50,601 nt of DNA. Origin: a virus. Taxonomy: Duplodnaviria > Caudoviricetes. The first letter of the stretch is position 1. The number at the start of each line of letters is the position of its first letter. Of this stretch, positions 2,947 through 40,573 are shown piece after piece. The DNA lies in the IMG/VR virus record IMGVR_UViG_3300007276_000069, positions 1 through 50,601 of that record. One strand, written 5' to 3'. Position numbers and translations under genes: made by a program. The notes under the pieces were generated by a model. It was not told the origin of the DNA and did no database searches. It was given only the letters and a program-made list of their open reading frames with translations.

Positions 2947-3663
2947 ATGAGTTTTGGCTACAACGTTTTAGGTTTTGGTTCTTTAGGCGGATCAAGAATT
3001 ACCACTATAACATTAAATATAACATCTAACGCTAGCGAGTATAATATCCTAACAGCAGCTAACTCTGCAGGGTATGATGCTCCCTCCGGTCAGCCTATCG
3101 TAGTTAATGTTGCTTCTGGAGTTACCGTAAGCGGCAGTAGCACTCATGCTATGAGAACAGGCGCAATAAATGCAGCATCTCCACTAACTATTAATGTTAC
3201 TGGTAATATAGACGGTTATACAGGTGCTAATGGTAGTGCTGGACGGCCCGGAGGAAACGGTTCAGTAGGCGGCGATGCTATATATTGGGAATCAAGTACA
3301 CCATATACAGGAACTGGTATTGTTAATATTCTTTCTGGTGGTAAAGTTCGTGGTGGCGGCGGCGGCGGTGGTGGTGGCGGTCTAGGCCAAGTTAGACAAG
3401 GTGTTGGGCCAGATGATAAAGGTAATCCTCTTTGTGGTGCTGCTCCTAATATAACAGGTAGTACAGGTTCTACAGGTTCTGCAGGTGGTTTTGGTGCGGC
3501 TGGTGCTAGTGGTGGTACTGGGGGTGCTGCATCAGGATCATGTCCTCAAGTAACAGCAGCCAGTGGTGGGGGATCAGGAGGAGCAGCAGGTTTTGCTGTT
3601 AGGAAGAACAGCAGAACTGTTACTGTTAATAACTCTGGTACAATGAACGGATCGGCGGGCTAA
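2947..3663 (+). CDS. Glycine-rich distal tail fibre/adhesin-like protein
   Basis: Poly-Gly runs (GGGGGGGGG, GGSGGAAG) after the tail fibre gene, as in phage receptor-binding adhesins. Confidence 0.5.
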   Translation: MSFGYNVLGFGSLGGSRITTITLNITSNASEYNILTAANSAGYDAPSGQPIVVNVASGVTVSGSSTHAMRTGAINAASPLTINVTGNIDGYTGANGSAGRPGGNGSVGGDAIYWESSTPYTGTGIVNILSGGKVRGGGGGGGGGGLGQVRQGVGPDDKGNPLCGAAPNITGSTGSTGSAGGFGAAGASGGTGGAASGSCPQVTAASGGGSGGAAGFAVRKNSRTVTVNNSGTMNGSAG

Positions 3664-3664
3664 A

Positions 3665-4486
3665 ATGAAAGTTTTGATACCTATTAGCGGCGGAATAAAT
3701 TCTACGTATGCTGTATGGCGTTGGCTTTCTCAGACAAGCCATGAAGTTATCTCTGTGTATTTTAAAGAAAGTAATTTGTCTGATGCTGATATTCAAGCAG
3801 GAGAAGACGCTGGAATTGCAATTAGAGATTGGTTGAAAGCTAATGTAAGAGATTTTACGTGGCTTTCTCCTGTATCAGTTGATCCTATTGCTGAAGAAAA
3901 ACTTCCCATTAGAAATGGAGTAACTATTGAAGCTTCTAAAGGAAGTGTTAGTTTAATATTAAATAGAAGAAATAAAATAATAACTGCAGCAAAAGATAAT
4001 AGTTGTGACGGAATAGTTAGTGGATACAGTCTTGAAAATACATCTACAGATAGAATTTGGGATGTTAGAGAGCATAGCTCAAAAGTAAGCTGGTCAGGTA
4101 AAAACTTTTATGGCGGTGCGTCAGATATAGAATTTGAGTCTCCTGACCCCTTCCCGTCAAGAACAGATACAGGAACTTTCTTAGAAAATTTATCTGGTAG
4201 ATTTGAACAGTATGAAGCACTGCCATCTGCTTTGAGAGATTTAGTGTACAAGGGAACTTTTAAAGACGATATAGATACATGTTGGCGGCGTGGCACATGG
4301 GACGCATATGAAAAGTTTAGCGGCACAGGGGCAGAGTTTGATCAGTGGATGGCTGAAAAAACTTTTGCAGGTAAGTGGCGTCCTGATGCTTTTGATGCGT
4401 CAAAAGTAGAAGGCGAGGAGTATTTTTACAGAAATAATCCTATTACGTGGTTAAAAGCATTACGAGATGGAGGATATAATTTCTAA
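3665..4486 (+). CDS. PP-loop (adenine nucleotide alpha-hydrolase, QueC-like) protein, copy A
   Basis: N-terminal MKVLIPISGGINST matches the SGGxDS-type PP-loop. Confidence 0.6.
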   Translation: MKVLIPISGGINSTYAVWRWLSQTSHEVISVYFKESNLSDADIQAGEDAGIAIRDWLKANVRDFTWLSPVSVDPIAEEKLPIRNGVTIEASKGSVSLILNRRNKIITAAKDNSCDGIVSGYSLENTSTDRIWDVREHSSKVSWSGKNFYGGASDIEFESPDPFPSRTDTGTFLENLSGRFEQYEALPSALRDLVYKGTFKDDIDTCWRRGTWDAYEKFSGTGAEFDQWMAEKTFAGKWRPDAFDASKVEGEEYFYRNNPITWLKALRDGGYNF

Positions 4487-28292: not shown

Positions 28293-29077
28293 ATCTTTAA
28301 TACCTCCTTTGCTTCATCCTCAGTAAGTCTTTTTAAGTCTCTGTCTAGTATTGCTATATCAACTATATCTCCATACTCATTGTTTATTCTTAGTGATATT
28401 TCAACTGCCTTGTCTGTAGCATCTTTGTCCAGTGCCACAGTTATACGCTTGAAGCTGCCTAGCCTGTACAGTACATCCTCTTGTAGGTACGTTCCAAGTA
28501 GCGCAACTCCCGTTGCAAAGTTAGATATAGAGGCTGCAGAAGCGCAGTCTTCAACTACTACAGCATGTTTGTGTTTGCCGCATACAAACGGTATCTTGCT
28601 CTGTCCGTATCTGTACCACTTTGGACCTGCGTGTAGTCCCTGTCCAATGTATCTTCCCGCTGCATCAACGCTTTTGTTACCATCCTTAATAACAAACACA
28701 GCCCTGTCTCTCTTGTAATCATAGCGTATGTCGGCTAATCCATTCGACCAAGCTGCAGAACAGTTGTTTGTTTTGAGGTAGTCATAGTAATGTTGAGGGC
28801 AGTTATTCTTGCGCCAGTTCTGCTTTTCTACTTCAAGCCCTACAGGTAAGCTTGGCTTTACCATATCATCAACTACAGAGAAAGAGTTTAAGTTAAGTCC
28901 CTCTTTAATTACACCACCTACAGAACAGCTTGCATGGAAACAATAATACTTAATACAATCTGTAAACTGAGTAACTGAAAGAGTGTTAGTACCATTACAT
29001 ACAGGACAATCTAATCTCTTAGAAGTACCTAAAGGTATATCTAGATTATATATATAATCTTTAATTATATTAGTCAT
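28289..29077 (-). CDS. DNA primase (zinc-binding plus TOPRIM)
   Basis: CPVC...CFHASC, KWYRY, VVVED, ALDKDA. Confidence 0.85.
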   Translation of the reverse strand: MTNIIKDYIYNLDIPLGTSKRLDCPVCNGTNTLSVTQFTDCIKYYCFHASCSVGGVIKEGLNLNSFSVVDDMVKPSLPVGLEVEKQNWRKNNCPQHYYDYLKTNNCSAAWSNGLADIRYDYKRDRAVFVIKDGNKSVDAAGRYIGQGLHAGPKWYRYGQSKIPFVCGKHKHAVVVEDCASAASISNFATGVALLGTYLQEDVLYRLGSFKRITVALDKDATDKAVEISLRINNEYGDIVDIAILDRDLKRLTEDEAKEVLKI

Positions 29078-29215: not shown

Positions 29216-29509
29216 ATGTTCACCATATTCAACCGCAGACTATCTGATCCTGACCTGATGCGGCGGGTTGTCGAGGCCACAGTGCAGGACAGGTTTTTCA
29301 CTGTATCATTTACAAAAGCGGATGGTTCTTACCGCCAGTTAAACTGTAGGCTTGGTGTTAACAAGCACAAGAAGGGTGGTAGAGATTGTAACACTAACAA
29401 ACAAATGATGACTGTGTGGGACACTGGGGCTAAAGGCTACAGGAATGTCAACATGAATACCATAACAAGTATTACAGTAGATGGTGTTAGGCATGAGTTC
29501 ACAGAGTAA
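29216..29509 (+). CDS. SH3 beta-barrel (WYL_2-like) protein
   Basis: FFTVSFTKADGSYRQLNC...VWD...GYRNVN. Confidence 0.65.
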   Translation: MFTIFNRRLSDPDLMRRVVEATVQDRFFTVSFTKADGSYRQLNCRLGVNKHKKGGRDCNTNKQMMTVWDTGAKGYRNVNMNTITSITVDGVRHEFTE

Positions 29510-29903
29510 GTTGCATAGTGATGAGTTCATAACAGAAGTATTTGAACTGAGTAGGAAAGAGGGACTAACAGCCCGTGAGATAGCAGAAGCTATGTCACCC
29601 AAGTACAACACAAACAACTGTGGCAAGATGACTAGGAACTCTGTGATAAGTATCCTGAACAGGTACAAAAACAGGTTCACACACATGGGCAAAGTAGAAG
29701 TTAAGCGTATAGACTTCGCCAATGTAGCAGAGCAGCTTGAGCTTGAGCGTGATAGGCTAAAAGACAAAGATCAGTACAAGATCAAGAAGTGCTTGTGCTG
29801 TAGGAAAGAGAAGCTATTGCACAGAGTCTCCTTTGTGTGTGATACCTGTAAAAGCAGTGTTGCCTACACTTCTCCTGTAGATGACTACAGCGTGAGATAC
29901 TGA
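29493..29903 (+). CDS. GcrA-like transcription regulator with C-terminal Cys4 motif
   Basis: EGLTAREIA...MTRNSVISILNR resembles GcrA EGLSASQIA...VTRNAVIGKVHR; CLCC...CDTC. Confidence 0.65.
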   Translation: MSSQSKLHSDEFITEVFELSRKEGLTAREIAEAMSPKYNTNNCGKMTRNSVISILNRYKNRFTHMGKVEVKRIDFANVAEQLELERDRLKDKDQYKIKKCLCCRKEKLLHRVSFVCDTCKSSVAYTSPVDDYSVRY

Positions 29904-31514: not shown

Positions 31515-31690
31515 GACAGATAAAACTAGAAACGTCTATGGATGATCTAGACAAACTACATCAAACTGTAAACGGCGATGGACGTAAAAAAACTGTAATC
31601 GTTTCTAAGAGTATGTTGTCTAAGATACTAATAGACCATACAAGGTTAGTAGCATATTTAGGACCAGTGGTTAAGGAGCCAGAAGATTAG
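31511..31690 (+). CDS. Small hypothetical protein (not in ORF track)
   Basis: ATGA-coupled 59-aa ORF MRQIKLETSMDDLDKLH... Confidence 0.55.
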   Translation: MRQIKLETSMDDLDKLHQTVNGDGRKKTVIVSKSMLSKILIDHTRLVAYLGPVVKEPED

Positions 31691-31712
31691 TCTGTGTGGA
31701 TTAAAAAAACAT

Positions 31713-31742
31713 TTGACGGACGCTAGACGGATATGCTAGGGG
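31713..31742 (+). promoter_or_regulatory. Putative promoter upstream of the tRNA-like RNA and denV-like gene
   Basis: TTGACG...ATGCTAGGG preceded by an A-tract. Confidence 0.45.
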
Positions 31743-31754
31743 TCAATTCTTCAA

Positions 31755-31868
31755 GAGGGGCAAGGCTAGGCGAATGCTGTATAACTTGAATAAGGCATGG
31801 CATAGGATTGCGAAAGCAAACGTTTCAAGTGTGCCAAGCAGAAGGTTCGATTCCTTCTCCCCTCACCT
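31755..31868 (+). ncRNA. tRNA-like structured RNA without a canonical anticodon loop
   Basis: GAGGGG/CCCCTC acceptor-like stem, T-arm AGAAGG-TTCGATT-CCTTCT, 3' ACC, internal ACTTGAA/TTCAAGT stem, TTGC-GAAA-GCAA hairpin. Confidence 0.6.
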
Positions 31869-31889
31869 TATTTACATGGAGAACCAACA

Positions 31890-32423
31890 ATGAATATATT
31901 CTATCTAGATAAAAACCCCAAGATTGCAGCGCAAATGCACTGTGACAAGCATGTAGTCAAAATGGTGCTGGAGTATGCACAAATCCTATCCACCGCACAT
32001 AGAGTAATTGACGGTGATGAAGTTGCTGACCGTGAGGGCTTGTACAAGATAGCTCACAAGAACCACCCCTCTACTGCATGGGCAAGGCTAGGCCGTGGCA
32101 ATTACAATTGGTTGTCGGACCTATGGGGATATCTTGGTATTGAGTACACGCACCGCTACAACAAAGTACACAAGGCTGCTACGAAAGAATGGTTGTTCTA
32201 CGCGCCTGACAACATACCACACAGAACAGTCTTTACAGGATTAACTTCAGCACCACCGCAATGTATGCCTGACCACTACAAATGTAATCCTAACTCTGCG
32301 TCGTTAGACGATGCAATCTCTGCGTACAAGGCGTACTACATTGGTGATAAGGCATACTTTGCTAAGTGGACTAATCGTCCTGTACCAGATTGGTTTACCG
32401 AAACTGTGAAAGAGGTAGCATAA
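31890..32423 (+). CDS. Pyrimidine-dimer DNA glycosylase / T4 endonuclease V-like protein
   Basis: MNIFYLD...HCDKHVVKMVLEYAQILSTAH, HKNHPS, PQCMPD, AYKAYY. Confidence 0.75.
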   Translation: MNIFYLDKNPKIAAQMHCDKHVVKMVLEYAQILSTAHRVIDGDEVADREGLYKIAHKNHPSTAWARLGRGNYNWLSDLWGYLGIEYTHRYNKVHKAATKEWLFYAPDNIPHRTVFTGLTSAPPQCMPDHYKCNPNSASLDDAISAYKAYYIGDKAYFAKWTNRPVPDWFTETVKEVA

Positions 32424-32515
32424 TGCACGCACTTGAAGATGTACTATACAATGAAGAACTACATCCAAACAGTGTGTTTTGGTACACTTGGATGATGGAA
32501 CATTATACGCAGTAA
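32423..32515 (+). CDS. 30-aa peptide (not in ORF track)
   Basis: TAATG-coupled, GAGG RBS: MHALEDVLYNEELHPNSVFWYTWMMEHYTQ. Confidence 0.4.
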   Translation: MHALEDVLYNEELHPNSVFWYTWMMEHYTQ

Positions 32516-32545
32516 ATTTGTCGGCCCTTAAATTTTGTCGGCCTT
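32513..32545 (+). repeat. Tandem direct repeat TAAATTT(T)GTCGGCCYT x2
   Basis: TAAATTTGTCGGCCCT followed by TAAATTTTGTCGGCCTT. Confidence 0.8.
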
Positions 32546-32556
32546 TAGATTAGTTT

Positions 32557-32646
32557 GTGCAGGGTTTTGTTGGTTCTCCCCCTGTACTCCCCGGCGGTGA
32601 GCGGCGGTTCTAGTCTCCCTGACCACTGCTCCCGCCGGTTTTTATT
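32557..32646 (+). ncRNA. Two-hairpin RNA with anti-SD loops; second hairpin also looks like an intrinsic terminator
   Basis: GTGCAGGG/CCCTGTAC with loop TTTTGTTGGTTCTCC; long GC stem 32591-32638 with loop CTAGTCTCCCT followed by a T-tract. Confidence 0.65.
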
Positions 32647-32729
32647 CTGTTTAGATTAAAATGAGTGTTTGACATTGATCGCGGTTTAGTTTATGCCAGC
32701 TTTGTTTCATCAACAAAAGGACGAGAACC

Positions 32730-33794
32730 ATGAACCAGATACAGATTATCGAACCCGCCCACAACGTGCCGGAAGTAGCGCAGATTAAACCTGCCGCCGT
32801 TCGCGAACACAACGACGTGTTTGACCTCAGCTTTTTTGAGCCGCTCAAGGTCGATAAGTTTCACATTTACACCGCCGACGGTACGGAGATAACTGGTAGC
32901 AGAGCTTTGCGGTATCTTCACGATGGAAGCTTAGCCGATACCAGCGCGGTATCATCCAGCTACACACTGGAAAACCACGTAGACTTGTTTGGCAAACACG
33001 CCGACATTCTCAAAGACAGTGAGCTTCCTACCGACAACGTGCTAGTCCGTGACGAATATTCCGACTTCGGCATGAAGGCTAAACGTTCCATCCAGTATTT
33101 GGACGAGGCCGTGGACATGTCCGGCGGCGGTGACATGGTTTATTGCCGTTCTGATCAGATTAATTCAGTTAATAGCAAATGGGCTTTCCAGCAGTTTGCA
33201 GGTGCCTATCGTTCATATTGTGAAAACTCAATGGTTTTTGGTGGCGATAAGGCAGTCTACAACAAAGTGAAACATTCCAAGCACTTTGACGCCGCCAGTT
33301 TGTTGCGTACAGCCAATACAGTGTTTGGTACTTTCCGCGATAACATCGACCGCTTTAAAGAATGGAAAGCCACGCCTGTTGAAGATGCTACAGCGGGAGC
33401 GTTTATCAAGCATATTTGCCCGAAGGATGTTACAGGACAGAAACGGCTAGAACGTGAACAGCAGCACGGGATTGAGAAGGCAGAAGACTTGAACATTAAG
33501 AAGTTCCACGCCTTGTACGACTTGTGGGAAGAGTACAGCCGGGATTACTCGCAGGGCGGTGGCTTGGGCAAAAATAAATGGGCTTTGTACAATGTGCTGA
33601 CCCACTACGCCACGCATACCCATGACAGCAGAACGTTTGAGATTAATGGTGTAGAAAAAACTCATACGTTTGGTCGTGCAAATGACAACATGGTAAACAC
33701 TGATCGCGGCGGCTATACGCTCAACGAACAAATGGATCGCGCACGCGGTATCTGGGCAGTGCTTTCCGCACCGGCTTGGGCTTCGATTAACTAG
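32730..33794 (+). CDS. DUF932-family protein
   Basis: RSYCENSM...KHS and NKWALYNVLTHYATH. Confidence 0.7.
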   Translation: MNQIQIIEPAHNVPEVAQIKPAAVREHNDVFDLSFFEPLKVDKFHIYTADGTEITGSRALRYLHDGSLADTSAVSSSYTLENHVDLFGKHADILKDSELPTDNVLVRDEYSDFGMKAKRSIQYLDEAVDMSGGGDMVYCRSDQINSVNSKWAFQQFAGAYRSYCENSMVFGGDKAVYNKVKHSKHFDAASLLRTANTVFGTFRDNIDRFKEWKATPVEDATAGAFIKHICPKDVTGQKRLEREQQHGIEKAEDLNIKKFHALYDLWEEYSRDYSQGGGLGKNKWALYNVLTHYATHTHDSRTFEINGVEKTHTFGRANDNMVNTDRGGYTLNEQMDRARGIWAVLSAPAWASIN

Positions 33795-33899: not shown

Positions 33900-34121
33900 A
33901 TGACGACCAAGAAAACAGCGACCACGACTAATGGCGGGAAACAGGTTTTTGTGTCTCAGGAAGCACTCGACGCTATCGAGGGTTTGCAGTTCAAGATGCA
34001 AAATATTGATATTGAACATGCCCGGCTCTATGGCATAGGTGCGAAGGGGGCTTTTTCCCGCGTGATTGAGAAGCTTGCGAAACAGGGGCTTTTTACCCCT
34101 CAAGTGAAAGAGGCAGAATAA
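33900..34121 (+). CDS. Small hypothetical protein
   Basis: AAGGA RBS, 73 aa. Confidence 0.55.
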   Translation: MTTKKTATTTNGGKQVFVSQEALDAIEGLQFKMQNIDIEHARLYGIGAKGAFSRVIEKLAKQGLFTPQVKEAE

Positions 34122-36304: not shown

Positions 36305-36535
36305 ATGCCTCAATATCAAGGGCCTTATGCAGCTTTTACAATGATATCCAACGCGCCTGAAAAACAGCCGGAGGATGACACCTGCCTAACCTGCGTGTGT
36401 CAGCCGAGAGATTGTCATTGTCCAGAGCCTTGCGCTCACTGTGACTGTGGAGACTGTCACTGTAAGAAGATGTACACAAGAACCACTGGATTTGGAACGA
36501 GTGGATGGGGAGAACCAACGGTGGAGATGGAATAA
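36305..36535 (+). CDS. Cys/His-rich metallothionein-like protein
   Basis: CLTCVCQPRDCHCPEPCAHCDCGDCHC (10 Cys, 3 His). Confidence 0.55.
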   Translation: MPQYQGPYAAFTMISNAPEKQPEDDTCLTCVCQPRDCHCPEPCAHCDCGDCHCKKMYTRTTGFGTSGWGEPTVEME

Positions 36536-38874: not shown

Positions 38875-40573
38875 TAAGGCGGATGTAAGAGAAGAGCCTG
38901 TAAAGCGCCGGGGTCGCCCAAAGTTAGCCGAGGGTGAAAAGGGTAACTACCGCACCTCCGCAAAAGAACGTGCGCGGAGAGCATCCGCAGCCGCCGTCCG
39001 TAATGCAGACAGGGCTAAGAAAAAGGCGCAGAAGAAAGCCTCCAAGGCTAAAGAAAAGAAAGACAGCATCAAGAAGGTTGAACAGGCTCTGTTCACCAAG
39101 AATGGTGCTAAACTTATTGAAGATACTACACTACAGAATGTACCAAAGCCCGTAAGGGAGTTAGTAGAGGATGAAGCAGAGGTTATCTTCAAGCCCAATT
39201 CAGGGCCACAAACGGACTTTTTGGCAAGCCCTGAAAGGGATGTGTTTTATGGGGGCGCTGCTGGCGGCGGGAAGTCTTACGCTCTGCTTGCTGATCTTCT
39301 TCGCTACTGCAGCAATCCCAATCATCGCGCCCTTATTATTCGTCGCACACTGGACGAGCTTACAGAACTGGTTGACAAGAGTAAACAACTCTATCCAAAA
39401 GCTTTTCCCGGTGCCATCTTTCGGGAGTTGAAAGCGATGTGGCAGTTCCCGTCCGGGGCTACGGCATGGTTCTCCTACCTCGACAAGGACAAAGACGTAA
39501 CACGCTACCAAGGACAAGCCTTTACTTGGATTGGCATTGACGAGATCACGCACTACCCGACACCCTACGTATGGGAGTATCTGCGTTCTAGGCTTCGTAC
39601 TACTGATTCTGAAATTAATGCGTACATGCGCTGCACAGGAAACCCCGGAGGGGTAGGCGGATGGTGGGTCAAGAAGATGTACATCGACCCTGCACCACCT
39701 AACGCACCTTTTGCAGCTACTGATGTTGATACAGGTAACGCACTTTTGTGGCCTGACACAGCAACTAACGGTAAAGCAGGTCAACCGCTTTTTCTTCGTA
39801 AGTTCATTCCGGCGCGATTGACCGATAACCCCTACCTCGCTGAAACTGGTGAATATGAAGCCATGTTGAGGTCGCTCCCAGAAGTCGAACGAAGGCGGCT
39901 TCTAGAAGGGGATTGGGATGTCGCAGAGGGAGCGGCGTTCCCAGAGTTTTCCCGCAACATTCATGTTGTGGAAGCCTCACAGACACAGATACCCCACAAC
40001 TGGTTGCGCGTCCGCGCAGCGGATTACGGGTATGCCGCCCCCTCATGTGTTCTGTGGGGCGCAGTTGATTGGGATGATACTCTGTGGATTTACAGGGAGT
40101 TCTACGGCAAGGGCCAAACGGCAGAGATGCTGGCAAATACTATCGTAAGCCTAGAGGGGGATGACCCCGGCATGTATTACTCTGTGCTTGACGCTTCTTG
40201 CTGGAACAGGACAGGCACTGGCCCTTCCATTGCAGAAACCCTTATTCGTAGAGGTGCTAGGTTTACTCCTTCTGATAGAAATAGAATAGCGGGTAAGCTG
40301 GAGTTGCACAGCCGGTTAAGGGTTGATGATTTTACAGGCGAGCCAAAGATAAAGATACTTTCTACGTGTACACATCTGATACGCACTCTCTCAGGACTAC
40401 CTCTGTCAAAGACAAACCCTGAAGATGTAGATACGAAAGCAGATGACCACGCCTACGATGCTTTGCGATACATGTGCATGACCCGCGCAAGAGGTCATCT
40501 AACTATTAATTCTATGATGAATAAGATGAAAGAAGCAAAGCCTAAAGCATTTGACTCTACGTTTGGTTACTGA
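38804..40573 (+). CDS. terL: Terminase large subunit (true start may be TTG 38867)
   Basis: YGGAAGGGKS Walker A, IGIDE Walker B, TGNPGG, ADYG, DDHAYDALRY. Confidence 0.93.
   Translation: MDDLDHQSEGTRKVLDESPLPLVDKADVREEPVKRRGRPKLAEGEKGNYRTSAKERARRASAAAVRNADRAKKKAQKKASKAKEKKDSIKKVEQALFTKNGAKLIEDTTLQNVPKPVRELVEDEAEVIFKPNSGPQTDFLASPERDVFYGGAAGGGKSYALLADLLRYCSNPNHRALIIRRTLDELTELVDKSKQLYPKAFPGAIFRELKAMWQFPSGATAWFSYLDKDKDVTRYQGQAFTWIGIDEITHYPTPYVWEYLRSRLRTTDSEINAYMRCTGNPGGVGGWWVKKMYIDPAPPNAPFAATDVDTGNALLWPDTATNGKAGQPLFLRKFIPARLTDNPYLAETGEYEAMLRSLPEVERRRLLEGDWDVAEGAAFPEFSRNIHVVEASQTQIPHNWLRVRAADYGYAAPSCVLWGAVDWDDTLWIYREFYGKGQTAEMLANTIVSLEGDDPGMYYSVLDASCWNRTGTGPSIAETLIRRGARFTPSDRNRIAGKLELHSRLRVDDFTGEPKIKILSTCTHLIRTLSGLPLSKTNPEDVDTKADDHAYDALRYMCMTRARGHLTINSMMNKMKEAKPKAFDSTFGY

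What the first reader, a model, noticed from the sequence alone, without database searches (positions are those of the whole stretch)
31878..32646. Anti-Shine-Dalgarno hairpin RNA whose loop exactly complements the RBS of the upstream denV-like gene
Seen: hairpin 1 (GTGCAGGG 32557-64 / CCCTGTAC 32580-87) has the loop TTTTGTTGGTTCTCC. Bases 32567-32579 are the exact reverse complement of GGAGAACCAACAA (31878-31890), which spans the SD through the A of the ATG of the denV-like gene. The starts of two nearby genes carry shorter matches (GAGAACCA 32723-30, AGAACCA 33894-900). Hairpin 2 also exposes TCTCCC in its loop and ends in a T-tract. Known: alphaproteobacterial sRNAs (AbcR1/2, cuckoo RNAs) repress translation through anti-SD hairpin loops, and type I toxin mRNAs such as hok use long-range 5'-3' pairing. 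Inference: either a 3'-UTR-derived phage sRNA that shuts off a set of early genes (and possibly host mRNAs), or a cis 3'-to-5' loop that silences its own mRNA.
Basis: partly seen in the sequence, partly recalled or inferred. Interest (0 to 1): 0.8.

Follow-up and report, generated by a model that had tools for sequence, protein, structure and literature searches.

The report
Phage 3'UTR hairpins complementary to RBS
Two conserved RNA hairpins at the end of an early operon of an uncultured marine phage show a loop that can pair with the ribosome-binding site of that operon's first gene, which suggests but does not prove an RNA switch that shuts early phage genes off.

Summary
GGAGAACCAACAA (31878-31890, SD through the A of the ATG) is the exact reverse complement of 32567-32579, which lies in the loop of hairpin 1. 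Hairpin 2 exposes TCTCCC and ends in TTTTT.

The window is a ~97% complete HMO-2011-type marine podovirus. The two-hairpin element recurs in about 25 distinct uncultured relatives. Pairing is 99.7%, four stem pairs show compensatory changes, and the loop core UGGUUCUCC does not vary. No Rfam family matches.

The interpretation needs correcting in four ways:
- The conserved partner is not the denV-like gene. It is the RBS GGAGAACCA of whichever gene comes first after promoter P1, and more weakly the RBS of the DUF932 gene after the paralogous promoter P2.
- Only the 9-nt core is conserved. The 13-nt match occurs in two lineages, and loop-RBS covariation beyond the core is not significant (p 0.09-0.16).
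- The RBS is also kept in relatives whose hairpin 1 differs or is missing.
- Most relatives lack the T-tract after hairpin 2.

No data show a discrete transcript.

Best reading (about 0.45): a 3'-UTR anti-SD RNA that represses early-cassette translation, in trans or in cis. Main rival (about 0.3): a terminator/stability cassette with incidental complementarity.

The parts
31699..31741 (+). Promoter cassette P1: A-tract GATTAAAAAA, -35 TTGACG (31713-18), -10 region TATGCTAGGG (31732-41)
   Evidence: The same cassette (..CAGATTAAAAAA-N-TTGAC-N-GTGCTAGG..) precedes the first RBS in relatives.
31752..31868 (+). About 117-nt tRNA-like insertion in the 5' UTR, with a T-arm-like GAAGGTTCGATTCCTTC and a 3' CCCCTCACC
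   Evidence: Present in the window, L006, L140 and L238. Absent from L004/5/19 and from the M-loop relatives. ARAGORN finds no tRNA. This belongs to another finding (e1-6288639).
31878..31892 (+). SD, spacer and ATG of the first gene of the P1 unit (GGAGAACCAACAATG); proposed target of loop 1
   Evidence: The duplex with loop 1 is -21.8 kcal/mol against a window-wide mean of -5.8, sd 2.6. The core GGAGAACCA is exact in 13 of 15 lineages, and the other 2 differ by one transition that keeps a G-U pair.
31890..32423 (+).
   Evidence: E 2.6e-53. No Pfam family. No PDB relative. Some GenBank homologues are annotated 'putative endonuclease V'.
32423..32515 (+). Conserved 30-aa ORF (MHALEDVLYNEELHPNSVFWYTWMMEHYTQ), the last ORF before the hairpins
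   Evidence: tblastn finds it in 14 related loci at 46-91% identity. No Pfam family.
32518..32551 (+). Two tandem ~17-nt direct repeats (TTGTCGGCC at 32518-26 and 32535-43)
   Evidence: Other relatives carry different repeat pairs in this position. One run's contig carries a third copy (table 4).
32557..32587 (+). Hairpin 1: 8-bp stem (32557-64 / 32580-87), 15-nt loop UUUUGUUGGUUCUCC with the invariant core UGGUUCUCC
   Evidence: The loop is conserved in 18 of 18 distinct aligned sequences apart from 0-2 nt between UUUU and UGG.
32591..32637 (+). Hairpin 2: long GC-rich stem (CCGGCGG.. / ..CCGCCGG) with UCUCCC (32613-18) in the apical region
   Evidence: 11 pairs counted, 3 of them with changes on both sides, 100% of cells paired.
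32638..32642 (+). T-tract after hairpin 2 (intrinsic-terminator tail in this phage)
   Evidence: The 8 nt after hairpin 2 hold 6-7 T only in the W and A5 loop lineages, and 2-5 T in most others.
32653..32697 (+). Promoter cassette P2, a paralogue of P1: AGATTAAAA, -35 TTGACA (32669-74), -10 TATGCC (32692-97)
32723..32732 (+). RBS/start of the DUF932 gene (GAGAACCATG), an 8-nt complement of loop 1
   Evidence: In M-loop relatives this RBS reads AGGAAA(A)CCAGAAATG, giving 9 contiguous nt (12 of 13) complementary to their loop.
32730..33794 (+). DUF932-family gene, first gene of the P2 unit
   Evidence: PF06067, E 4.2e-13. It was the anchor for finding relatives.
36508..36521 (+). Second strong complement of loop 1 (GGGGAGAACCAACG). 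It lies at the end of a Cys-rich ORF, 14-27 nt before ATG 36535.
   Evidence: (-23.0 kcal/mol, the best sense-strand hit in the window). It is kept in L012/L013 but not in L002/L015/L019, and it is in coding sequence (G-E-P-T).

Best explanation
The stretch 32557-32642 is the 3' untranslated end of an early transcription unit: promoter P1 at ~31713, the first-gene RBS at 31878, the den-like gene and a 30-aa ORF. It folds into two adjacent hairpins whose loops are pyrimidine-rich.

The loop of hairpin 1 (invariant core UGGUUCUCC, preceded by a U-run) base-pairs with the SD and spacer (GGAGAACCA + A-rich) of the first gene behind P1. It pairs less well with the related RBS of the DUF932 gene behind the paralogous promoter P2. 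This blocks 30S binding and so limits translation of the early cassettes.

The pairing could happen in trans, from a stable 3' fragment left after mRNA processing, as with CcsR and other 3'-UTR-derived sRNAs. It could also happen in cis, with the 3' end pairing to the 5' end of the same mRNA, as in icaR. In cis it would work as a self-timer: translation stops once the transcript is complete.

Shown: the structure, its conservation and stem covariation, the + strand reading, the loop conservation, and the complementarity and where it lies.

Inferred: transcription through the element, any processing, the pairing itself, and repression.
For: (1) Exact 13-nt complement between the loop and the SD/start. 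The duplex is -21.8 kcal/mol against a window-wide mean of -5.8, sd 2.6. It is the second-best sense-strand site in the window.

(2) The element is a real conserved structure. There are 19 distinct full-length sequences, 18 of them aligned. 99.7% of cells are paired. Four pairs show changes on both sides, against 0.4 +/- 0.6 in shuffles (0 of 500). Slid controls give 43-59% paired. G-U pairs (13 of 18 sequences at one pair, 5 of 18 at another) fit only the + strand.

(3) Loop 1 is nearly invariant while the stems, the linker and the hairpin-2 apex vary.

(4) In all 15 lineages with enough upstream sequence, the first RBS after P1 carries GGAGAACCA (13 exact, 2 with a G-U-compatible transition). 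This holds although the first gene differs between them: den-like, MSVPETEG.., MQNRLRIIS.. or MLEQLD...

(5) Some loop variants match their own RBS better: window and L140 13 nt, L006 and L163 12 nt, L010 10 nt.

(6) P1 and P2 are the only two cassettes of this promoter type in the window, and both are followed by a loop-complementary RBS.

(7) In 4 relatives' records with a type-A hairpin, the sense-strand matches to the loop complement with up to 2 mismatches include the first RBS in all 4, and the DUF932 RBS in 2.

(8) Precedents. The icaR 3'-UTR anti-SD motif pairs with its own SD (PMC3868564, abstract seen). [quoted passage not shown]
Against: (1) Shuffling RBSs among the 15 lineages gives no significant cognate advantage (p = 0.16 by energy, 0.09 by contiguous length). 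L152 and L137 are mismatched combinations.

(2) The RBS GGAGAACCAAAATG is equally conserved in relatives with a different hairpin 1 (type B: L004/5/19) or none of this kind (L017/18/20). It is therefore maintained without this loop.

(3) For the type-B loop, the first RBS is not among the 10 best sites in its genome. For the common M loop, the first RBS (-15.9 kcal/mol) is only about ninth.

(4) A 13-nt inverted repeat within 1.5 kb is about what chance gives once per window (plus my own estimate).

(5) The linkage of loop G/A with the DUF932 RBS G/A splits into just two clades 150 nt apart, so it may reflect a single event.

(6) No transcript ends or small RNA are shown. RNA-library material consists only of read-length Logan contigs, which cannot show strand, ends or level and may be DNA.

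(7) No own promoter is recognisable before hairpin 1, and most relatives lack a U-tail. A canonical stand-alone sRNA gene is therefore not evident.
Confidence: 0.45

Rival explanations
1. The two hairpins are a terminator and 3'-end stabiliser. They belong to a conserved 'stem-loop plus early promoter' regulatory cassette at a module boundary. The loop is conserved for another reason, such as protein or RNase recognition or folding, and its complementarity to the RBS is incidental to both being built around SD/anti-SD-like and A/U-rich sequence.
For: - The element sits between the last ORF of one unit and promoter P2. In this phage hairpin 2 is followed by TTTTT.
- The block hairpins-P2 is conserved as a unit.
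- The RBS is conserved without the hairpin.
- There is no significant covariation beyond the core.
- A 13-nt inverted pair is within chance expectation per window.
- Flanking genes are mosaic, as expected at recombination-prone cassette boundaries.
Against: - Most relatives lack a U-tract after hairpin 2 (2-4 T in the next 8 nt), so termination is not the conserved property.
- Hairpin 1 never has a U-tail.
- 14-17-nt loops with an invariant 9-mer are not needed for termination or 3' protection.
- A chance 9-mer complement to one given RBS is about 2e-5 by my estimate, and here it fits two paralogous RBSs.
- There is only one copy per genome, unlike cassettes repeated at many gene boundaries.
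Confidence: 0.3
2. The element is a phage small RNA aimed mainly at host mRNAs. Its two anti-SD loops occlude host ribosome-binding sites (host takeover), and the match to phage RBSs is a side effect.
For: - Two exposed C/U-rich loops (UGGUUCUCC; UCUCCC or UUCCUCCC) and a C/U-rich linker are seen in all type-A members.
- The architecture resembles alphaproteobacterial anti-SD sRNAs (PMC4615179, passages seen).
- The likely hosts are alphaproteobacteria.
Against: - The host is unknown, so no target could be sought.
- The invariant part of loop 1 extends beyond an SD complement (UGGUU pairs with AACCA) and fits the phage's own early RBS context, which is over-represented in the window.
- No copy or homologue exists in 185,579 representative bacterial and archaeal genomes. 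The 5 string matches score at most 12.2 bits with the model.
Confidence: 0.1
3. The region acts at the DNA or protein-binding level. The paired 17-nt direct repeats plus GC-rich hairpins would be an origin, an operator or another protein-recognition site, and RNA pairing plays no part.
For: - Tandem 17-nt repeats lie directly upstream. They differ in sequence between relatives (TTGTCGGCC.., AAAAAAAGTGTAT.., AAACTTCTCCGGTTAAA.., TGTAAC..) and vary in copy number.
- GGAGAACCA / TGGTTCTCC could be read as dispersed sites for one protein.
Against: - G-U pairs in both stems would be C-A mismatches on the other strand. This favours a single-stranded + strand structure.
- The repeats vary while the hairpins stay constant, so the two are separable modules.
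- There are only two repeats, and no AT-rich unwinding region was identified.
- The motif copies are not arranged as a palindromic operator.
Confidence: 0.07

Closest known systems
CcsR / cuckoo (RSs0680, alpha-r14-type) sRNAs of alphaproteobacteria
   Same: Both have two or more adjacent hairpins with large loops that carry an anti-SD-like pyrimidine motif. Both lie in the 3' UTR of a small upstream ORF and are followed by a terminator-like hairpin. The lineage matches the likely host group (PMC4615179, passages seen; PMC8034643, abstract seen).
   Different: The defining loop motif CCUCCUCCC is absent. Here the two loops differ from each other (UGGUUCUCC against UCUCCC/UUCCUCCC). There is no Rfam hit. 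The element is phage-borne, and loop 1 complements the RBS of its own operon well beyond the SD.
icaR mRNA 3'-UTR/5'-UTR interaction in Staphylococcus aureus
   Same: A C/U-rich anti-SD motif in the 3' UTR is complementary to the SD of the same mRNA. In icaR this blocks initiation and creates an RNase III substrate (PMC3868564, abstract seen). This is the closest model for the cis reading.
   Different: The organism is unrelated and there is no sequence homology. Here the transcript is polycistronic, the motif sits in a hairpin loop, the complement is longer (9-13 nt), and a second, paralogous RBS downstream is also matched. Nothing has been tested experimentally.
c4 antisense RNA of phages P1/P7 (recalled from memory, not looked up here)
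   Same: It is a phage RNA cut out of the same transcript as its target, and its loops pair with a ribosome-binding region to shut off downstream genes.
T4 RegB endoribonuclease (recalled from memory)
   Same: It is a functional analogue of the proposed outcome: early phage mRNAs are silenced by attacking their GGAG Shine-Dalgarno sequences.
   Different: RegB is a protein nuclease, not an RNA. The comparison is of logic only.
Intrinsic (Rho-independent) terminator
   Same: In this window hairpin 2 is a GC-rich stem followed by TTTTT.
   Different: The stem is long with a large apical loop, and hairpin 1 has no U-tail. Most relatives have no U-tract. The simple terminator scan did not list it.

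Membership tests
Cuckoo / CcsR anti-SD sRNAs | 2-4 adjacent hairpins of about 24-50 nt with loops of 9-27 nt | tested here: met
   Two adjacent hairpins of 31 and 47 nt. Loop 1 is 15 nt. The size limits are taken from PMC4615179 (passages seen).
Cuckoo / CcsR anti-SD sRNAs | Every hairpin loop carries CCUCCUCCC | tested here: not met
   No match to CCTCCTCCC, even with 1 mismatch, between 32550 and 32650. The loops are UUUUGUUGGUUCUCC and ..UCUCCC.., with UUCCUCCC in some relatives.
Cuckoo / CcsR anti-SD sRNAs | [quoted passage not shown] | tested here: inconclusive
   The position fits: a 30-aa ORF ends 41 nt before hairpin 1. But that ORF has no Pfam family, and transcription and processing could not be shown.
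Any Rfam family (including AbcR and other alphaproteobacterial sRNAs, if present in Rfam 15) | Covariance-model score at or above the gathering threshold | tested here: not met
   0 matches in the whole window at gathering score. In 31650-32750 only 3 matches with E of 3.3-5 to unrelated families, none on the hairpins.
icaR-type 3'-UTR/5'-UTR anti-SD interaction | Pyrimidine-rich motif in the 3' UTR complementary to the SD of the same mRNA | tested here: met
   13-nt exact complement in the window. 9-13 nt in 13 of 15 lineages, and 9 nt in the other 2 (L014, L138) if their single G-U pair is counted. That both sites lie on one mRNA is inferred from the promoter and terminator positions.
icaR-type 3'-UTR/5'-UTR anti-SD interaction | Demonstrated pairing that blocks initiation or triggers RNase III cleavage | not testable with these tools
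   This needs toeprinting, EMSA, reporter fusions and compensatory mutants.
Intrinsic terminator | GC-rich hairpin immediately followed by a U-tract, conserved among homologues | tested here: inconclusive
   Met in the window, L140, L006, L137, L146 and the L003 type (6-7 T of 8). Not met in most M-loop relatives (2-4 T of 8; tails GGGTCCAT.., GGATTTACCC).
hok/sok-type type I toxin mRNA with 5'-3' fold-back | A small toxic membrane-peptide ORF and an antisense RNA gene in the same locus | tested here: not met
   The ORFs of the unit are a 177-aa phrog_624 protein and a 30-aa ORF with no hydrophobic stretch. No antisense promoter or terminator was found. Only the idea of 5'-3' pairing is shared.
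Stem-loop-plus-early-promoter cassettes repeated at gene boundaries (T4 PeSL type; recalled) | Many copies per genome flanking mobile gene cassettes | tested here: not met
   The covariance model R1 finds one copy in the window and one in the complete relative G001. The promoter cassette occurs twice in the window.

The most novel reading that the evidence does not exclude
An RNA-only early-gene shut-off. The 3' end of the first early mRNA of an abundant group of marine phages carries an anti-RBS hairpin. Once it is transcribed, or released as a stable fragment, it closes the ribosome-binding sites of the phage's own early promoter cassettes (P1 and P2). Early translation would then be self-timed without any protein factor. 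This would be an RNA counterpart of T4 RegB and the first regulatory RNA family described for HMO-2011-type phages.
Probability: 0.15. Interest if true: 0.75.

Novelty: new member of a known kind. Interest (0 to 1): 0.5.

Why it matters
HMO-2011-type podoviruses infect SAR116, Roseobacter and SAR11 bacteria. The abstract of PMC9038755 describes them as a dominant and broadly distributed marine viral group. A term search of that paper found no mention of sRNA, stem-loop or noncoding, and my literature searches found no regulatory RNA described for the group.

A conserved structured RNA supported by covariation, with a loop that mirrors the phage's own early RBS, would give a first handle on post-transcriptional control in these uncultured phages. 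It would also add a phage example to the small set of bacterial 3'-UTR anti-SD regulators.

If instead the element is only a terminator/stability cassette, it is still a useful marker of early-unit boundaries and of mosaic exchange points in this clade.

Tried and rejected
- tRNA or tmRNA at or near the element: ARAGORN finds none in the window.
- Known RNA family: none at gathering score. Only E > 3 noise appears in a permissive scan.
- Close cultured relative: none by megablast or blastn in INPHARED. HTVC115P, which has a den-like homologue, has tightly packed genes and no such element.
- Strict covariation of the loop with the den-like gene's RBS: rejected, because the den RBS in 18 relatives differs.
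- Covariation of the loop's variable part with the first RBS: not significant.
- Inverted-duplication relic: no similarity beyond the loop, by eye, in the sequences shown.
- Own sigma70-type promoter in the 17-nt repeats: the spacing does not fit. The TTGTCGGCC motif is not repeated elsewhere in the window.
- Minus-strand ORF or RBS reading of GGAGAACCA in the loop: no start codon follows.
- Bacterial or prophage copies: 5 string matches in MAGs, all at most 12.2 bits with model R1.
- More distant den-carrying phages: I gave the model 62 of the 80 loci. The other 18 were contigs already examined. Only L288 (type B) scored E < 0.01, so 0 of the other 61 have the element.
- Promoter-cassette scan of IMG/VR: 91 stretches were reported and 80 were listed in the visible output. 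Of the 68 newly numbered loci (L197-L264), 5 had an RBS-like motif downstream under my filter, and only 2 of those (L198, L238) belong to this clade. No new hairpin type was found.
- RNA runs: 4 runs hold 10-13% of the sampled words. When laid, they give read-length contigs over 31699-31991, 32074-32224 and 32440-32581, the last with 0 differences and running from the small ORF into hairpin 1. Contigs cannot show strand, ends, level or RNA origin, so this is neither support nor refutation. Parts without cover mean nothing.
- GcrA-like regulator as a host clue: Pfam gives only a sub-threshold WH_GDS1 match (E 0.006) for 29481-29900.
- Supplementary files of papers were not consulted.
Full report
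**What is there.**
GGAGAACCAACAA at 31878-31890 runs from the SD to the A of the ATG of the 177-aa gene at 31890-32423. Its exact reverse complement lies at 32567-32579, inside the 15-nt loop of hairpin 1 (stem 32557-64 / 32580-87, one G-U pair). Hairpin 2 (32591-32637) has TCTCCC at 32613-18 in its apical part and is followed by TTTTT. The 151 nt around the two hairpins fold at -51.3 kcal/mol, z = -4.39 (0 of 200 shuffles). The shorter matches at 32723-30 and 33894-900, each abutting a start codon, are also real.

**Is it more than chance?**
A 13-nt exact inverted repeat with arms within 1.5 kb is not remarkable in itself. The window holds two such pairs, and I estimate about 1.1 by chance. 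Three things exceed chance:
- The placement, with one arm on an SD/start and the other in the loop of the strongest intergenic hairpin.
- The over-representation of the motif. GAGAACCA occurs 9 times against 1.46 expected, and the 13-mer with up to 2 mismatches occurs 5 times against 1.29 expected, each with 0 of 100 shuffles reaching the observed count.
- The duplex energies. In an RNAduplex scan of both strands of the window with loop 1, the den-gene RBS (-21.8 kcal/mol) and a site at 36501-36524 (-23.0) stand far outside the background (mean -5.8, sd 2.6).

**Context.**
- The window is an IMG/VR virus record of 50,601 bp, estimated 97% complete.
- Its terminase is 52-55% identical to those of Puniceispirillum phage HMO-2011, Roseobacter CRP phages and Pelagibacter HTVC phages. 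It is therefore an uncultured HMO-2011-type marine podovirus with a probable alphaproteobacterial host.
- No close relative is in INPHARED.
- The 'denV-like' gene is phrog_624 ('DNA binding protein', E 2.6e-53). It has no Pfam family and no PDB relative. Only some GenBank homologues are labelled 'putative endonuclease V'.
- It is followed, overlapping by one base, by a conserved 30-aa ORF (32423-32515). Next come two tandem 17-nt repeats, the two hairpins, a promoter-like cassette P2 (TTGACA 32669-74), and a DUF932 gene (32730-33794).

**Relatives.**
Anchoring on the DUF932 protein gave 22 IMG/VR loci. Of the 21 that include the upstream region:
- 15 have the same two-hairpin element (type A).
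- 3 have a two-hairpin element with a different hairpin 1 (type B, loop UUUUUCUCCCUGUUUA).
- 3 have neither.

Pattern scans added members from IMG/VR and from metagenome contigs (21 of 35 stretches). That gave 19 distinct full-length sequences. I aligned 18 of them, leaving out L154, which differs from L153 only in the tail.

On that alignment:
- 99.7% of 324 cells are standard pairs.
- 4 of 18 pairs show changes on both sides, against 0.4 +/- 0.6 in 500 shuffles (0 reach 4).
- Slid controls give 43-59% pairing.
- G-U pairs are frequent (13 of 18 sequences at one pair), so the structure belongs to the + strand, the sense strand of all neighbouring genes.

Loop 1 is invariant (UUUU, then 0-2 nt, then UGGUUCUCC), while the stems, the linker and the hairpin-2 apex vary. 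A covariance model (R1) finds exactly one copy in the window and one in a complete relative. It detects type B only weakly (24 bits, E about 0.01). It finds nothing convincing in five bacterial MAG contigs that share the string (at most 12.2 bits). Among 62 loci of more distant den-carrying phages, only one, a type-B contig, passes E < 0.01. The family is therefore confined to a narrow clade. No Rfam family matches.

**What the loop is complementary to.**
In relatives the den-like gene usually has a different RBS (GGGAGGAACAACAATG, GGGAGGACCAGCAGTG and similar). The conserved partner is another site: the RBS of whichever ORF comes first after a conserved promoter cassette P1 (..CAGATTAAAAAA-N-TTGAC-N-GTGCTAGG.., then a short 5' UTR ending ..CACAAC GGAGAACCA AAATG). 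That first ORF is den-like in the window, L119 and L138. Elsewhere it is one of three unrelated small ORFs.

Among 15 lineages, 13 carry GGAGAACCA exactly. The other 2 have one transition each (GGAGAATCA, GGAGGACCA) that would keep a G-U pair with the loop.

Contiguous Watson-Crick complementarity is:

| Length (nt) | Lineages |
|---|---|
| 13 | window, L140 |
| 12 | L006, L163 |
| 10 | L010, L119, L137, L152 |
| 9 | the five other M-loop lineages |
| 6 and 4 | the two variant RBSs (9 if G-U pairs are counted) |

P2, the cassette directly after the hairpins, is a paralogue of P1. Its RBS reads AGGAAA(A)CCAGAAATG in M-loop relatives, which gives 9 contiguous and 12 of 13 positions complementary to their loop. 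In the window it reads GACGAGAACCATG, an 8-nt complement. P1 and P2 are the only two cassettes of this kind in the window. So the loop mirrors the RBS of both early cassettes that flank it.

**Evidence against a pairing function.**
- Shuffling RBSs among the 15 lineages does not make cognate pairs significantly better (p = 0.16 by energy, 0.09 by contiguous length). There are mismatched combinations: L152 has a W loop with an AAATG RBS, and L137 has an A5 loop with an ACAATG RBS.
- GGAGAACCAAAATG is equally conserved in type-B phages and in phages without hairpin 1.
- The type-B loop has no outstanding complement at that RBS. For the common M loop, the first RBS (-15.9 kcal/mol) is only about the ninth-best site genome-wide.
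- The apparent co-variation of loop G/A with DUF932-RBS G/A splits into two clades of tightly linked sequence and may be a single event.
- The strong second site at 36508-21 lies in coding sequence (G-E-P-T) and is not kept in all close relatives.
- A U-tract after hairpin 2 exists only in the lineages with W or A5 loops (6-7 T of 8). Most others have 2-4 T, so the element is not consistently a terminator or a classical sRNA 3' end.
- No promoter of its own is evident before hairpin 1.
- Marine RNA libraries hold only read-length contigs over parts of the unit. One runs from the small ORF into hairpin 1 without differences. These cannot show strand, ends or RNA origin.

**Interpretation.**
The best-supported reading (about 0.45) is a 3'-UTR element whose exposed pyrimidine-rich loops pair with the SD and spacer of the early-cassette RBSs and limit their translation. 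It could act in trans, as a processed stable 3' fragment, or in cis, by 3'-to-5' pairing.

The structure, its conservation, the strand, and the location and extent of the complementarity are shown. Transcription, processing, pairing and repression are inferred.

The main rival (about 0.3) is a terminator/stabiliser plus promoter cassette in which the complementarity is incidental. Lesser rivals are a host-directed anti-SD sRNA (about 0.1) and a DNA- or protein-level element linked to the variable 17-nt repeats (about 0.07).

**Comparison with known systems.**
- In architecture and genomic setting it works most like the alphaproteobacterial CcsR/cuckoo RNAs. [quoted passage not shown] It fails their defining loop motif CCUCCUCCC and has no Rfam match, so it is not a member.
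- In the cis reading it works like the icaR 3'-UTR/SD interaction (PMC3868564, abstract seen).
- P1 c4 RNA and T4 RegB are recalled analogues of the logic only.
- I found no paper describing regulatory RNAs in HMO-2011-type phages. The main genomic paper on the group contains none of the terms sRNA, stem-loop or noncoding. The library covers only open-access papers and preprints.

**Verdict.**
The 9-nt core is the conserved feature and the 13-mer is lineage-specific. The element is a new, narrowly distributed structured RNA family of a known kind (3'-UTR anti-SD hairpins), and its function is unproven. Interest is moderate (0.5).

Noticed in passing
window 31752-31868: About 117-nt tRNA-like insertion (T-arm-like GAAGGTTCGATTCCTTC, 3' CCCCTCACC) between promoter P1 and the first RBS. 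It is present in the window, L006, L140 and L238, and absent from L004/5/19 and the M-loop relatives. ARAGORN does not call it a tRNA.
   Followed up: partly
L017 3-79; L018 1600-1676; L238 14222-14298: A bona fide tRNA-Arg(tct) gene sits directly upstream of the P1 cassette in three relatives. The window has no tRNA gene.
   Followed up: partly
window 32518-32551 and the same position in relatives: A pair of ~17-nt tandem direct repeats lies between the small ORF and hairpin 1. Its sequence differs between relatives (TTGTCGGCC..; AAAAAAAGTGTAT..; AAACTTCTCCGGTTAAA..; TGTAAC..), and one run's contig shows a third copy. It is a swappable module of unknown role, possibly a protein-binding site.
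   Followed up: partly
window 31699-31741 and 32653-32697: Two paralogous promoter / 5'-UTR / RBS cassettes (A-tract, TTGAC..TGCT(GT)AGG....CACAAC..GGA(G/A)AACCA..ATG). A weaker third look-alike precedes the gene at 33900 (GAATATGCGTAG, then ..AGAACCATG).
   Followed up: partly
window 39466-39474 (- strand), inside the terminase gene: GGAGAACCA (context GAGGTAGGAGAACCATGCC in the relatives, TAGGAGAACCATGCC shown for the window) is conserved antisense to terL in the window and in 4 relatives. On the terL mRNA it reads like the loop, not like its target. It is probably kept by coding constraint.
   Followed up: partly
window 3180-3192 / 4012-4024 and 28760-28775 / 29606-29621: Two other inverted repeats with arms 819 and 830 nt apart (13 nt exact; 16 nt at 94%). 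They were not examined.
   Followed up: no
window 31890-32423: The 'denV-like' label rests only on the annotation of some GenBank homologues. There is no Pfam family and no PDB relative by sequence, and PHROG names it 'DNA binding protein'.
   Followed up: partly
window 36305-36535: A 76-aa Cys-rich ORF (CxxC/CHC repeats) with no Pfam family. Its last codons carry the second-best complement to loop 1.
   Followed up: partly
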